NCBI GenBank assembly: GCA_964270895.1
Contig: OZ185436.1
Strand: one strand, 5' to 3'
Origin: Podarcis filfolensis
Taxonomy: Eukaryota
Length of the DNA stretch: 64,000 nucleotides
Shown here: positions 54,501 to 60,500 of the stretch, piece by piece
Numbering within the stretch: the first letter of the stretch is position 1
Layout: every line of letters starts with the position of its first letter
Made by a program: the position numbers

Positions 54501-57500
54501 TAGTAGGTGAGGCTGTTATCTTATGGGTTTTTTAATCTTTATTTTAGGAAACAACTTTTCTTCTTCTTCTTCCCTGTAGCAATTTTTTCCCTCTCTCCCC
54601 CCTGATTCTGAGCAAGATGACTACTCATTTTTATTCTGTCTGTATGCTTATTTAGCGACTGAGTCAGAATTTCAGACATAGGGCCTCTATAGCATTAGAG
54701 TGGCCCTTTTTTTCCTCCTGCAAAGGTCAGGGGACAGAGAGGGATTATTAAGGGCTCATACGAGACACTTAAGTAAACTCTTGGGGCGGGCTGGGGTAAT
54801 AATTGCATATTTAAAACCCATAGATTTTTATACACAGTCACTCAAAATGTAAACTTTTAATTTACCTGCTTGCTAAAATGTTTATAATTTATAATTGACT
54901 ATAATTTATAATTTGACTATCACATTTTTAAAACTACCTGTCCAGTGCAGAAGGACAAAATCTGGTATCATGAATTCATGAAGACCCCAGAGACTACATA
55001 AAAGCATCTTCAGATTTGTATATTTTTTGCCACTGTAAATCATTAAAATCAATAAAATACAAAAGCCAAGCCTTCCATTTTTCTTATTACATTGTAATAG
55101 CTTATATAATTGTCTTTGCATATCACATTCTGATATTTATGTGTGATAAATGGCTTTGTACTTGGTATCTCCTATTCTCACATTGTATGAATGTATCTCT
55201 CTTCAAACAGGCACAAATCCTCTGCAAAAAGTATCTAAAGTTCAGGGTAGATACTCTTTAAAAAAAGAGAAAATGTTGTTTGCTCATTTACATTTAAGCT
55301 TGCTCCAAACCGGCTGCATTTAATTAAGTCTCTTAGTATGGATTAACAGTGCCTACGCAAGGGGCTAATCTGCATTAATTTATCTACATTAAATTAACAC
55401 GTTGCATAAAACTACCATGTTTTCTGTTGGACACGGAGAGCTACAGGGCTTGGGCAGGAAGGAAGAAGATAGTGGTTGTCTTCAAGGCAGACAATAGTTC
55501 CATATTCACATTTTTTCATTTTGGCAGAAGTAGCATTTAGGGAGGAAACTAAAGAGCACTTCAGCAGCTTTTTCCAATACTAAGTACCGTATTTTTCGCC
55601 CTATAGGACGCACCGGCCCATAGGACGCACCTAGGTTTTTTTTGGGGGGGGAATAAAGAAAAAATAATTTATTTCCCCCCCAGCCGCGGCTTCAGTGCGC
55701 CCCGCGCTCCGGGCAGCAGGCTGCTATCCGCAGCCTAGGGAGCCCTGCGGGAACTCCCGCGGGCTCCCCAGGCTTGCTGATAGCTTCCTGAAGCCTGGAG
55801 AGCGAGAGGGGTCGGTGCGCACCGACCCCTCTTGCTCTCCAAGCTTCAGCGAAAGCCTGCATTCGCCCCATAGGACGCACACAGATTTCCCCTTCATTTT
55901 TGGAGGGGGAAAAGTGCATCCTATAGGGCGAAAAATACGGTAATCATTGTAGTCCTCCCCTAGTTGAAATTTTGGCATTGTTTCAGCCTCTGTTTAAGAA
56001 GCTAATCAAGTAATATCTGATTTTATTTCAATATCCATGGTAACAGATCCTCCATCCCTTGTTTTATAACAATCTTAATAGTTTTACAGGTATCAGGCAA
56101 ACATGCAGGTTATTAACTGAAACTATTTGGCTTACACTTAAGCATCAAAAAGCAACTGTGTGGAAACATATCAGTTAATAGCATTAAAAGTCAATAAATT
56201 AAATGTAATTGTTTTGGCAAGTTTATTTTACTCTGCCAAGCGTCCAGTCACAATCTGATTATTTTCAGGAACCATGGAAGACAGTTCTTAATTCTGATAA
56301 CCTGTTTCTACTACAGTTATGTATTCTCAGATTTAAAGTGTATAATTACACAACCATTAAGCTTGTAGCATGCAAAGTTAAAAAAGAACATTTATTTCTG
56401 GCATCATACCCCGAATTAGTAGGGTTTAGCAGCCTAGTCCTTTGAGCTGTCAGTCACATCTCACGGTACTAGTTGCATGAAGGAATGGAATGAAGAAAGG
56501 AAGATGAAAAGGTGGCATTGAGGAATCAGTCCCTGGGACATTTTTAAAAAAACAAACATGCAAAAGGCCTTGCTAAGACTGAGGGAAGATGGGGATTGTT
56601 GTGATAATATGTCTGCCACCTCTCCTTGCTTGGCCTGTTCTTTGCAACTGACCAGAGAATTCCGCATAGCGCCAGATCCTTCCTCTCTGCTCACTTGGCC
56701 CATGCCCTCAGCCTCCCTGTTCCAGCATAAATATTTATATTTGCAAAAGGGGTGGGACCTCCGTTTCACATGAGTTCTGTGCAAATCAAAAAAGTTATAG
56801 GATCTCTACTAAAGCAACAGGACACAAGTTGGTTTCAGTATTAAAATATGTGCATACAAACTGATTATGTTGGCCCAGCTTAAATATATTTCGAGGACTG
56901 GGCTGTCCTGGAGCAGTTAAGGGAAGACAACATGTGAAGGGAGAGCAGCTAGACAACAGCATTCTGAACTAGCAAGGAATGACATTATACAAGGATCTCG
57001 AGATTTAACATTCACCAGCTTGACCAAAGTACTACATAGTTGTTCTGCATGTCCTATTAGAACATCGTTAAATTTCAGCTTCTCTGCAAGATAGTATTGT
57101 TTAATCATTCACATGCACTATGAAATGCTGTGGGTTTTGCCTTTTATGATGCGATTTCAAACAGTTTAGACTATGATCAAAAGTACACCAATACCATCGT
57201 CTTAAAAGTTTTAGTTCCCTGGAAACAACTCTAAATGATTTCAGTAAATCTAAGTACCAAATAAGTAACTTAATAAAATGGAAGGAGTAGGAGGTATATT
57301 ACAGTCAGAAGAAGAGAGAGGTAATGAGGAATGAATAACAGAAATGTGATTTATGTTGGTTGTTTTCATCACCTCCTTTTTCTTCCTGTTCTATTATTCC
57401 TCCTACTCCTTCAATTTTATTGTATCTCTTTAGGCAGTATACACACTATACTTTTATAGTGCATTTTAAGCACATTCTTTTCCTCTAAGTATTCTGAGTG

Positions 57501-60500
57501 CTGAAGTTTGTTATTGGTTGCTATAAATTATAACTCTTTGGAGGTTAAACTACAGTACCCAGAATTCTTTGAGGGAGGGGAATGTGCTTTAAAGGTATAG
57601 TGTGGACACTGTCTTATTCTTCATTTTCGAACATTTGATGCTATTTCTATTTTTTCTTCACTTCAATGTACTGCTTATCTTCTTGATCCAATTCCCTCTC
57701 CCATTTTAGTAAATATTGATTTGTTTTTCTCTTACCTATACCTTTCTTCAAGCATTGTTTCTTCTTGCTTTGAATATGCTAGTTTCCAACAGTCATAAAA
57801 TTGTCCACATATATTTCCCCCCCCCCCCCAGCTTTGGGAAGCTAGCATTTTTAAAGCAAGATGAGACAACGCCTGACGAAAACAAAAGAGGTAAATTGTG
57901 CGTGGTGGTGAGGGCCCAATATTTACTAAAATTGATTTAGATCAGGGGGGACTTAACTGCTCCTCTTAATCTTATCTAAATGTGACAGTTTTCTTTCATC
58001 TAATTTTTTATGGTCTTTTTCAGCTGGTTTTTGACTCAAACATTCTACTGAGATTGCTCTGTGGAAAATCTAAAGTGGTATTATATGCTGAAATACACCA
58101 GCTTTCTCTGTATGTACTTTCATCAGCTTTGGGTACAGGTGATCATTATGTGCTTCTTTTACAGTTCTTTGGGACTGGACACTCCTGCTTTCACTCCTGT
58201 GTCATAAAAGCTTCGTTTAAGTCTTCCTCAATTATTATTCTAAGCCCTCTTCTCTTCACTCTTTATATGCTTTCTCTTAGCAATCCAATTTATTCTTGTG
58301 GCTTGTAATGTGTCACTGTTATACGAATGATTTCAAGCTCTATTGTTTGGTCCTCCCCTCCCCTTTACCAATACTTTATTTCAAATTGTCTGTATCTGCC
58401 TGGATGTCACTGTGCAAAAGATACTTTGCCTTCTCTTCCAAAGTTCCAATTGGCACCAACCTTCAGTCTTTTCTACAGTTAAAGGGTTTTGGTGTTATCT
58501 TTGATCTCTTTCTATTTCCGCTCACATGTCTACCTAAGTTCTGCCAATTTTATTTCTATAAGATTTCTAAATTTGTTCTTAATATCAGTGAACATTCTTA
58601 TTCAGACCTACAGCCTACCTTGTGTTAACTACTAAAATGTCTTGATCACTGATCTTCCTGTTTCTCAGTTTAAACATATTATTTCTGTTTTCTCTTTTCT
58701 GCTTTCTTTCCTAATTCTTCAGTCATTTTATACCTCTCTATATATTTCCCTTCACAGTCTTCATGAAGTTTAAACTTCTTAAACGGTAATAAAAGAAGTT
58801 TAAACTTCACATAAAGCAGTACAGGAAGGAACACTGATAGAAAAAGGGGCAAGAATATGAATAGATATGAAGGTTACGTCTGTTCATGTTTTTGCCCCTT
58901 TTTCTATCTGTTGCTTTCCATTTTTCTCTTTGGTCCCTCTGTTAATAAAGCACTGATGTTTTTAATTAAATCTCTACTATATGGTTATATTTCTTATCCC
59001 CATGCTTTCTTTCTTATGTCTAGGACTGTTTTCCCTTTACATTTTTGACCAGCCCCTTCATCTCACGAAGAAACAGTTTTTAAAACTTCTGTCTTGATGT
59101 GCTATATGGATTTTTTCTTTGTTTCTTCCTTACTCCTAAAGTTCATTATTGTAGTCTTTTAACGCTTTCCTTCTTTCAGATAGCGCAGCTCCACTTCCCT
59201 TCCCTTTTGTTTCTTCATAGCTTCTGAACCTGTAAACAGGGACTTATTTCTGTACAATGGCCTAGGAGCATATGTTAATAATTTTATAACTAAAAAATTA
59301 CAAAATAAGTTTACTTTTGATAACTATGACTCTAAGTGCCATCAGAAAGGGGAGGAAGAACTGGACTTTTCAACAGTTGTTTTGAATAGACACAAAACTT
59401 TTAATTTCAAGAAGAAGAGAATTACTGAGGTATAAAATTACCACAGACCAACCACAGAGGCTTTCAGTAATGCAAGTGCCATTCTTTGAAATATGTTAAC
59501 AGACATGCATTGAGGATGGAGCTTCCTTCAAATATTGTGCTCAGATTTTACAGACTAAATTCTGTTATTTTATTCTCTTCCTTCCCTGAGCTCATAAGCT
59601 ATTAGTCATTATCTCGTTTTAAGCATGATTCATTGCACCTATTCCAAAATTCTGCCACATTTGGCAATTATGCCTAGCATGAGACAATTTGCATCTGTAA
59701 TAGATTGCAACACCCAACGCAGCACAACAAATGAGGAGCAAGTAGGTGTTTGCTTCGTGCTGTAACTAGCAAAATCATTTTTAAAATTAAGAATAGCATG
59801 CCTATGCCTGTGCTCAGCTGCCAGAAAGAAGCTCACTTTTACTGTGACAGTAAATCACTAGTTATCAGGCTCTATACCCCTTGTATGAGGGGAACATGTG
59901 TTTCCAGAAATCATCTCCCTTTGCAGCCACTGGCAGTTAATTTGGACAGTACTGAAACAGATGGACTTTGTATAAGGCAGCTCCCTCCGTTACTATGTTA
60001 CTATGCCCAGTGTTTTCTCTTAAAATCTTAGAATCCTTCTGGGAATTCATAATGGCTACCAGGCAAAGACAGCAGTTACCCTGCTTTGACCCAGCCAGGA
60101 TTACTGCCTTGGCATACCGGGATAATTTCTATCATATACAAATTTTATATACCATGATAGCTGTGACTGGCATTGCAGGGGATTGGACTAGATGACCCAT
60201 GGGATCCCTTCCAACTCCACAATTCTCTGATTCTATGATAACCATAAAGTAGCTTTTAAAGTGTAGGATAGAATCCTGCTTTCTGCACAGTGTGGTAAAG
60301 GATACCTGTCTAAGCTGACAGGTTGTGCGATCATGTCCTATTGCAGGAAGGGGAGCCTTTCACAGCCTGAAGATCACATTCCCTCATGGGTCCCCTGTGG
60401 GGGCTGCACCCCATTGGTGGGTGGAGCCAGGTGTAAAAGTAGGCACAGCAATGGATGTGGATTCTTAAACTTCTCCAGTAGTTTACATTCCGTCCATGCA

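What the first reader, a model, noticed from the sequence alone, without database searches (positions are those of the whole stretch)
57272..58919. Cluster of four inverted repeats in 1.65 kb of RAB40B intron 1: possible retroelement-derived hairpin-RNA locus
H1 (59-position stem), H2 (45 plus 16 bp), H4 (17 bp) and H3 (30 bp plus basal stem) have unrelated sequences and lack TIR/TSD signatures. In H1-H3 one purine-rich arm is an inverted copy of local pyrimidine-rich DNA that looks like a decayed L1. By hand count, transition mismatches give G-U pairs on the + strand 12 times and on the - strand 5 times, which is suggestive only. Hypothesis: a polycistronic miRNA/endo-siRNA or dsRNA source built from L1 sequence. 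Alternative: a neutral hotspot of fold-back template switching.
Basis: partly seen in the sequence, partly recalled or inferred. Interest (0 to 1): 0.7.

Follow-up and report, generated by a model that had tools for sequence, protein, structure and literature searches.

The report
Cluster of five intronic hairpin repeats
A 1.65-kb stretch of RAB40B intron 1 holds five unrelated fold-back repeats that look like old and young local inverted duplications of pyrimidine-rich DNA, most likely neutral, with no sign so far of a working small-RNA gene.

Summary
The three longest inverted repeats of the whole 64-kb window lie in 57272-58919. Four of the seven hairpins that beat every one of 100 shuffles sit there (placement p=0.002).

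The hairpins are unrelated to each other. They have no second copy in the window and no target-site duplications, whereas two true MITEs within 2 kb have TA duplications.

They sit in the most pyrimidine-rich 1.9 kb of the window. The purine arms of H1, H2 and H3/H4 are the only purine islands in it.

Best reading (0.55): repeated local inverted duplication (template switching or fold-back synthesis) at several dates, neutral.

The L1 origin is unsupported: 0 of 76 ORFs match RT, EN or transposase families. The G-U bias is marginal (16 vs 6, p=0.052) and favours the strand antisense to RAB40B. No Rfam family is matched.

Genome copy number, orthologues and small RNAs could not be checked.

The parts
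57272..57421 (.). H1: 150-nt fold-back. The left arm is purine-rich (0.78) and the right arm pyrimidine-rich (0.21). The outer 23 bp are 22/23 paired; the inner part is about 66% paired.
   Evidence: MFE -62.0 on +, -58.2 on -; z -6.6 / -8.6; self-inverted E 2e-14.
57432..57614 (.).
   Evidence: I4, I10; MFE -75.3 / -62.7; z -8.2 / -9.6; E 2e-12.
57703..57932 (.). H2: 230-nt fold-back. It has a perfect outer 16/16 pair, a poorly matched middle, and an inner 45-50 bp at 80-82%. The loop carries a run of 13 C (57817-57829).
   Evidence: MFE -74.8 / -72.5; E 3.5e-12.
58764..58809 (.). H4: perfect 17/17 inverted repeat with a 12-nt loop, built on a 14-nt self-complementary core that occurs twice. 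Weak pairing extends to 58751/58822.
   Evidence: z -6.3 / -6.1; D3, D12.
58824..58919 (.). H3: 96-nt hairpin with a stem of about 40 bp. The arms have purine fractions of 0.81 and 0.17. It shows the largest strand difference in stability (-57.1 on + against -38.4 on -).
   Evidence: (E 1.4e-10).
57340..59220 (+). Pyrimidine-rich tract on the + strand (purine 0.25-0.35 between the hairpins). It is the most skewed 1.9 kb of the window, and the hairpins are embedded in it.
   Evidence: the 1.9-kb window from 57301 has the lowest purine fraction, 0.39, against a mean of 0.49.

Best explanation
The cluster is a set of local inverted duplications. Short stretches of a pyrimidine-rich tract in RAB40B intron 1 were copied in reverse-complement orientation right next to themselves. 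The likely route is template switching of a stalled polymerase, or fold-back priming during repair.

This happened several times at different dates: H4 and the outer stems of H1 and H2 are young, H3 and H5 intermediate, and the inner stems of H1 and H2 old. Existing hairpins and the polypyrimidine tract probably stall forks and so favour further switches, including outward extension of stems already present.

The products have since decayed by ordinary substitutions and indels. Nothing indicates a selected function.

When the intron is transcribed (minus strand), the hairpins would fold into long imperfect dsRNA. That RNA could be edited or occasionally diced, which makes them raw material for new small RNAs rather than established genes.

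Shown: the anatomy, the excess over chance, the lack of TSDs, the composition pattern and the mixed ages. Inferred: the mechanism, the hotspot logic and neutrality.
For: 1. The five hairpins have short loops (about 3-50 nt), and together with the spacers between them they fill 57272-57932 and 58764-58919.
2. H1, H3 and H2 each pair a purine-rich arm with a pyrimidine-rich one, and these purine arms are the only purine islands in the most pyrimidine-rich 1.9 kb of the window. H1 and H3 arm skews (0.78/0.21, 0.81/0.17) are reached by under 0.5% of 6396 50-nt windows. The arms of the two bona fide MITEs are 0.38-0.62.
3. None of the five has a target-site duplication. The two MITEs at 55585-55942 and 60602-60838 both show TA duplications.
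4. The hairpins are unrelated to each other. The best of 80 arm comparisons is reached by 9 of 500 composition-preserving shuffles.
5. There is no second copy of any of them in the other 62 kb. The 60.6-kb MITE family does have a second copy, at 46425-46575.
6. Arm divergence ranges from 0/17 (H4) through 2/26-4/33 (H3), 9/62 (H5) and 10/50 (H2 core) to 17/50 (H1 inner), so the events were not simultaneous.
7. Outer stems are younger than inner ones in H1 (1/23 vs 17/50 mismatches, p=0.007) and H2 (0/16 vs 10/50, p=0.10). Stem extension at an existing hairpin is a described template-switch pattern (PMC8794818, passages).
8. Decay looks neutral: 16 transversion mismatches and 43 gap columns against 22 transition mismatches.
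9. Template switching is documented to create 30-55-bp stems in one step, with over 6,000 in primates, and to strike repeatedly at one locus (PMC10710096, abstract and passages). Inverted repeats and H-DNA-forming tracts stall forks (PMC12887540, passages).
Against: - The pattern 'near-perfect ends, imperfect interior' in H1 and H2 is also what a MITE with terminal inverted repeats looks like.
- The same 6 kb holds two true MITEs, one of them (55585-55942) a whole-length palindrome and the strongest fold in the window. Palindromic mobile elements therefore exist here and insert nearby.
- H5 and H4 have balanced composition, so the composition argument does not cover them. H5 has TA on its left flank and TT on its right.
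- Stems of 56-90 nt are longer than the 30-55 nt used as the criterion in PMC10710096.
- Other, weaker inverted repeats elsewhere in the window also lack TSDs at their borders, so a missing TSD is not very discriminating.
- Genome-wide copy number and orthologous empty sites, which are the decisive tests, could not be examined. No eukaryotic DNA collection or repeat library was available.
Confidence: 0.55

Rival explanations
1. The hairpins are decayed palindromic non-autonomous transposons (MITE or fold-back type). They either inserted one after another into a transposon-rich patch of the intron, or are internal hairpins of one larger composite element that includes the pyrimidine-rich tract.
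For: - Two canonical TA-flanked MITEs lie within 2 kb on either side. One of them is a whole-length palindrome with the lowest folding energy in the window.
- H1 and H2 have well-kept termini (22/23 and 16/16) around a poorer interior, like terminal inverted repeats.
- H5 is compositionally foreign to the tract (0.42/0.55) and is flanked by TA and TT.
- Finding no second copy in 64 kb says little for families of modest copy number.
Against: - There is no TSD of any length from 2 to 8 nt at H2, despite perfect 16-nt ends. None is convincing at H1 (7-mer, 5/7), H3 or H4.
- There are five unrelated sequences.
- The arms of H1 and H3 are extreme purine/pyrimidine, matching the surrounding tract and unlike the two real MITEs.
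- No transposase or RT remnant was found in 76 ORFs.
- There are no other copies in the window, whereas the 60.6-kb MITE family has two.
Confidence: 0.3
2. This is a functional hairpin-RNA locus: a cluster of young miRNA or endo-siRNA precursors, whatever the origin of the DNA. It would be transcribed either with RAB40B (minus strand) or from its own antisense promoter (plus strand).
For: - All five fold far better than shuffles on both strands (z -4.5 to -10.9).
- H3 has pre-miRNA dimensions: a stem of about 40 bp in a 96-nt hairpin.
- Transition mismatches give G-U on the + strand 16 times against 6 (p=0.052), and the + strand is more stable in H3 (-57.1 vs -38.4) and H5 (-75.3 vs -62.7).
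- Introns are where template-switch-born miRNAs are enriched (PMC10710096, abstract).
Against: - No Rfam family reaches its gathering score. The best sub-threshold hits are plant MIR models at 30-36 bits against cut-offs of 85-184.
- The favoured strand is antisense to the host gene.
- The bias is not significant, and it shrinks to 29 vs 21 G-U pairs in the MFE structures.
- The stems carry 16 transversion mismatches and 43 gap columns.
- H1, H5 and H2 are much longer than canonical precursors, and H4 is too short (17 bp).
Confidence: 0.07
3. The cluster is an assembly artefact: fold-back chimeric long reads creating false palindromes.
For: H4 is a perfect 17/17 repeat. Long-read chimeras are known to give palindromic joins (recalled, not tested).
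Against: - Four of the five hairpins have arms 8-34% diverged with indels, which an artefact would not give.
- H4 is only 46 nt.
- There is no N or gap in the window.
Confidence: 0.02

Closest known systems
Template-switch mutations (TSMs) that create hairpins in one step (Loytynoja and co-workers; PMC10710096, PMC8794818)
   Same: A reverse-complement copy of adjacent sequence with a short spacer. No TSD. An intronic location. Repeated events at one locus and stem extension are both described. The products are miRNA-sized or larger hairpins.
   Different: Here five hairpins are packed into 1.65 kb, and stems reach 56-90 nt, against the 30-55 nt used as the criterion there. The single-step origin on a phylogeny, which defines a TSM, could not be tested.
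Palindromic MITEs that fold into hairpins (for example the TA-flanked elements at 55585-55942 and 60602-60838 of this window)
   Same: Size of 100-360 bp, an inverted-repeat structure, strong predicted folds, and well-kept termini in H1 and H2.
   Different: No TSDs, extreme purine/pyrimidine arms that match the host tract, five unrelated sequences, and no second copy in the window.
Long intronic inverted repeats as dsRNA sources (inverted Alu pairs edited by ADAR; hairpin-RNA endo-siRNA loci). Recalled knowledge, not tested here.
   Same: It would work alike if transcribed: intramolecular dsRNA of 40-90 bp inside a pre-mRNA intron.
   Different: These arms are not copies of a dispersed repeat. 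No editing or small-RNA data are available for them.
Quasi-palindrome correction (Ripley 1982; Dutra and Lovett 2006). Seen only as references 7 and 8 in the reference list of PMC8794818; the content is recalled.
   Same: An imperfect palindrome templates its own perfection. This would explain the young outer stems of H1 and H2 around older interiors.
   Different: It was described in bacteria and phage at short palindromes. Its action here is inferred only.

Membership tests
Template-switch-generated hairpin | One arm is a reverse-complement copy of immediately adjacent sequence, with a short spacer. | tested here: met
   five hairpins, loops of about 3-50 nt, and 0 of 1000 arm-wise shuffles reach the observed scores.
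Template-switch-generated hairpin | It appears in a single step on a phylogeny, with the ancestral sequence lacking the inverted copy. | not testable with these tools
   No eukaryotic genome collection was available.
Template-switch-generated hairpin | It is not a member of a dispersed repeat family. | tested here: inconclusive
   There is no other copy in the 64-kb window. The genome itself could not be searched.
MITE (cut-and-paste non-autonomous transposon) | Terminal inverted repeats. | tested here: met
   This is met trivially by any hairpin. H1 ends pair 22/23 and H2 ends 16/16.
MITE (cut-and-paste non-autonomous transposon) | A target-site duplication of fixed length flanks the ends. 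| tested here: not met
   flanks of H1-H5 share no direct repeat (H2 none at 2-8 nt; H1 7-mer 5/7; H5 TA vs TT). The two control MITEs show TA on both sides.
MITE (cut-and-paste non-autonomous transposon) | Many dispersed copies in the genome. | not testable with these tools
   Only the window is held. There are zero extra copies in it.
L1 / LINE-derived sequence | Remnants of ORF1, endonuclease or reverse transcriptase. | tested here: not met
   Pfam scan of 45 + 31 ORFs: no such family. The only match above a curated cut-off is FHA, at 1637-2209.
L1 / LINE-derived sequence | A 3' poly(A) or microsatellite tail, with flanking TSD. | tested here: not met
   the only tandem array in 57-59.3 kb is a degenerate 7-mer x3.7 at 58682-58707. 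No A/T run bounds the tract.
L1 / LINE-derived sequence | Nucleotide similarity to a LINE consensus. | not testable with these tools
   No repeat library was available.
Animal miRNA precursor or cluster | A hairpin with a stem of about 35 bp and an apical loop of about 10 nt or more (as stated in PMC10710096). | tested here: inconclusive
   H3 fits. H4 is too short (17 bp). H1, H5 and H2 are 56-90 nt stems with bulges.
Animal miRNA precursor or cluster | A match to a described family. | tested here: not met
   Rfam 15 gave 0 matches at gathering score in the window. Only sub-threshold hairpin-shape hits appeared.
Animal miRNA precursor or cluster | Discrete small-RNA reads, and conservation with compensatory changes. 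| not testable with these tools
   No expression data or orthologues were available.

The most novel reading that the evidence does not exclude
The locus is a self-feeding fold-back hotspot. A polypyrimidine tract and the first hairpin stall replication, each stall seeds another inverted copy or lengthens an existing stem outward, and the resulting array acts as a nursery from which lineage-specific small RNAs are being born. H3 is the best candidate, possibly expressed from the strand antisense to RAB40B.
Probability: 0.08. Interest if true: 0.6.

Novelty: new member of a known kind. Interest (0 to 1): 0.3.

Why it matters
If the local-duplication reading is right, this is a compact natural example of how template switching can stack several hairpins of different ages at one site and lengthen them over time. 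That is the raw material proposed for de novo miRNA birth. It would give a concrete locus where a hotspot model (hairpins begetting hairpins in a polypyrimidine tract) can be tested by comparing lizard orthologues. If the hairpins turn out to be ordinary MITEs, the locus is routine repeat content. In either case there is at present no evidence that it affects RAB40B or encodes a small RNA.

Tried and rejected
- **Rfam.** The whole window at gathering score gave nothing. The permissive scan of 56800-59400 gave only sub-threshold hairpin-shape matches, mostly plant MIR models, and I rejected them as membership.
- **Pfam.** A scan of 76 stop-to-stop ORFs found no RT, EN or transposase. Three weak hits (ArfA 0.028, WH_Lhr 0.2, Pox_A9 0.23) are all below their cut-offs and were dismissed.
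- **Other copies in the window.** blastn and nhmmer of the region and of each hairpin against the window found no other copies. nhmmer gave a weak direct H1-H3 similarity (E 0.011), which composition-preserving shuffles do not support (38 of 500).
- **Flanking direct repeats around H4/H3.** D7 and D9 are short matches in low-complexity DNA and were not pursued.
- **A LINE 3' tail reading.** I considered the 7-mer array at 58682-58707 next to H4/H3. I rejected it because the array is degenerate and the stems are far longer than LINE tail hairpins (the latter point is recalled).
- **Transcription-coupled mutation asymmetry.** I considered it as a cause of the G-U bias. By recalled mammalian rates it would favour the minus strand if anything, so it does not explain the bias. 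This was not tested.
- **Batch folding.** The first strand folding batch call failed on a length limit. Folding was done with ViennaRNA in a script instead.
- **Literature.** Searches for RAB40B intronic miRNAs and for squamate MITE hairpins returned nothing relevant in the listings.
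Full report
**What is there**

- H1: 57272-57327 / 57366-57421 (56 nt, 79%).
- H2: 57743-57792 / 57832-57881 (50 nt, 80%), with a perfect outer 16/16 pair at 57703-57718 / 57917-57932.
- H4: 58764-58780 / 58793-58809 (17/17).
- H3: 58833-58865 / 58879-58911 (33 nt, 88%). Its pairing extends to 58824/58919 in the fold.

H5, 57432-57614, is about 190 nt and almost wholly paired. With it, 57272-57932 is three fold-backs in a row, separated by 10 and 88 nt. 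H4 and H3 form a second pair 14 nt apart.

**Is it more than chance?**

Yes, by several measures.
- Over the whole 64-kb window, the three longest of 32 inverted pairs are H1, H2 and H3.
- In an ungapped scan of my own (+1/-2, span up to 420), 7 hairpins score 17 or more. None did in 100 block-wise dinucleotide shuffles, where the highest score was 16. Four of the seven are in this 1.65 kb.
- Uniform placement of seven objects puts four within 1650 bp with p=0.0021. Five of nine (score 13 or more) gives p=0.00026.
- Because H1 and H3 pair a purine-rich with a pyrimidine-rich arm, I also shuffled each arm separately. 0 of 1000 such shuffles reach the observed alignment score for any of the five.
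- The inner part of H1 alone is not significant by local score (77 of 1000). It is significant in the register fixed by the outer stem: 22 of 33 matches against 0.36 expected, p=3e-4.
- Folding all 1277 windows of 200 nt on both strands puts the best GC-adjusted energies at a MITE at 55.6-56.0 kb, then H4+H3, H1, H5 and H2. Nothing comparable lies elsewhere.
- Individual folds have z-scores of -6.3 to -10.9 on the + strand and -4.5 to -9.6 on the - strand.

**Context**

Six-frame motif searches, done exon by exon, place RAB40B exons 2 to 6 on the minus strand at about 53.8, 53.1, 52.7, 51.7 and 50.3 kb.

WDR45B exon 1 is on the minus strand at about 45.62-45.68 kb, in a CpG island. A FOXK-type gene runs on the plus strand: an FHA exon at 1637-2209 (Pfam 2.2e-7) and forkhead exons near 24.87 and 26.22 kb.

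The + strand of the hairpins is therefore antisense to the host gene. The window has no N.

**Anatomy that bears on origin**

1. *Composition.* The + strand from about 57340 to 59220 is pyrimidine-rich, with a purine fraction of 0.25-0.35 between the hairpins. The 1.9-kb window starting at 57301 is the most skewed of the whole 64 kb. The tract is interrupted by exactly three purine islands: 57260-57340, 57830-57940 and 58760-58865. These are the purine arms of H1, H2 and H4/H3. H1 and H3 arms (0.78/0.21 and 0.81/0.17) are more skewed than all but about 0.5% of 6396 50-nt windows. H2 (0.33/0.61) matches the tract. H5 and H4 are balanced.
2. *Target-site duplications.* None of the five hairpins has one. 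H2 has none at any length from 2 to 8 nt, despite perfect 16-nt ends. H1 has at best a 7-mer with 5 of 7 matches. H5 has TA on one side and TT on the other. As positive controls, two elements within 2 kb are canonical: 55585-55942 and 60602-60838 both carry TA on each side of clean terminal repeats. The second has another family member at 46425-46575 (84% over 153 nt).
3. *Relatedness.* The five are unrelated to each other once composition is controlled. The best of 80 arm comparisons is reached by 9 of 500 shuffles. None has another copy in the window.
4. *Age.* Ages are mixed: 0/17 mismatches in H4, 2/26 to 4/33 in H3, 9/62 in H5, 10/50 in the H2 core and 17/50 in the inner part of H1. Within H1 the outer 23 positions have 1 mismatch against 17 of 50 inside (p=0.007). 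In H2 the outer 16 are perfect against 10 of 50 in the core (p=0.10).
5. *Decay.* It looks unconstrained: 22 transition mismatches, 16 transversion mismatches and 43 gap columns.

**Was it built from an L1?**

I found no support for this.
- Pfam scans of 45 ORFs of 70 aa or more across the window, and of 31 ORFs of 30 aa or more on both strands of 56.8-59.3 kb, gave no reverse transcriptase, endonuclease, ORF1 or transposase family.
- The only tandem array in the tract is a degenerate 7-mer x3.7.
- No A or T run bounds the tract.
- Similarity to a LINE untranslated region cannot be excluded, because no repeat library was available.

**Is it a small-RNA locus?**

Nothing positive was found.
- Rfam gives no match at gathering score.
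- The permissive scan gives only hairpin-shape hits far below threshold, for example MIR2118 at 36 bits against 85 and MIR847 at 32 against 184.
In the MFE structures it is 29 vs 21.
- The asymmetry is carried mainly by H3 and H5, and it favours the strand antisense to RAB40B.
- H3 has pre-miRNA dimensions on both strands. H4 is too short. H1, H5 and H2 are longer than canonical precursors.

**Most likely mechanism**

The simplest account of the composition pattern, the missing TSDs, the unrelated sequences, the short loops and the mixed ages is repeated local inverted duplication. A polymerase stalled in the polypyrimidine tract or at an existing hairpin switches template, or a broken end folds back. 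It copies some tens of nucleotides in reverse complement and then returns.

Template switching is documented to make 30-55-bp stems in one event, more than 6,000 times in primates. It also recurs at loci that already have a hairpin (PMC10710096; abstract and passages read). Stem extension is one of its listed footprints (PMC8794818; passages read). That fits the young outer stems of H1 and H2. Inverted repeats and H-DNA-forming tracts impede forks (PMC12887540; passages read).

The mechanism, the hotspot logic and neutrality are inferred, not shown.

**Main rival**

The same 'good ends, poorer interior' pattern is what a MITE looks like. Palindromic MITEs demonstrably exist and insert nearby. 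H5 in particular is compositionally foreign to the tract.

I put local duplication at 0.55, transposon-derived palindromes (separate insertions or one composite element) at 0.30, a functional hairpin-RNA locus at 0.07 and an assembly artefact at 0.02.

**What stayed unchecked**

- Genome-wide copy number, orthologous sequences, small-RNA data and editing data.
- Supplementary files of the papers were not seen. They hold the TSM length distributions, which bear on whether 56-90-nt stems are unusual.

**Verdict**

This is a real and statistically striking cluster, probably a neutral by-product of fold-back template switching. It is of moderate interest as a possible hotspot, and it is not shown to be a gene.

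Noticed in passing
window 55585-55942: A 358-bp element with 29-nt terminal inverted repeats and TA on both sides. It is a whole-length palindrome with a near-perfect central palindrome at 55788-55849 (31-nt arms, 94%) and a 17-nt tandem duplication at 55598-55631. It is the strongest predicted fold in the window (GC-adjusted robust z -8.5 to -10).
   Followed up: partly
window 60602-60838 and 46425-46575: A 237-bp TA-flanked MITE with perfect 20-nt terminal repeats and an internal 16-nt tandem array (60617-60655). A second, diverged copy of its interior (84% over 153 nt) lies in inverted orientation at 46425-46575. The Tc1/mariner-type assignment is recalled, not tested.
   Followed up: partly
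window 1637-2209, ~24874-24990, ~26219-26330 (+ strand): A FOXK-type gene on the plus strand: an exon with GGC repeats and an FHA domain start (Pfam 2.2e-7), and two forkhead-domain exons. It converges on WDR45B, giving the order FOXK-like (+), WDR45B (-), RAB40B (-).
   Followed up: partly
window ~45620-45680 (- strand), CpG island ~45200-46200: WDR45B-like first coding exon inside a GC-rich island (GC 0.53 over 44-46 kb), just downstream of the 3' end of RAB40B.
   Followed up: no
window 57817-57829 and 38184-38196: A run of 13 C sits exactly in the apical loop of H2. An identical-length C run occurs at 38.2 kb. Whether the loop run is a microsatellite or untemplated synthesis at the switch point is unknown.
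   Followed up: no
window 12095-12217, 9309-9455, 6094-6336, 23880-24216: Weaker inverted repeats with longer loops (51-265 nt) and no obvious TSD at their borders. They may be internal repeats of SINE- or MITE-like elements. Two short dispersed repeat pairs were also seen (11875-11942 / 49015-49083 and 15651-15725 / 60170-60244).
   Followed up: no
window 58700-58761 vs 59003-59046: Two short direct matches (19 nt at 84%, 17 nt at 82%) bracket H4+H3 at spacings of 303 and 285 nt. This could be a decayed direct duplication around the hairpins, or chance in low-complexity DNA.
   Followed up: no
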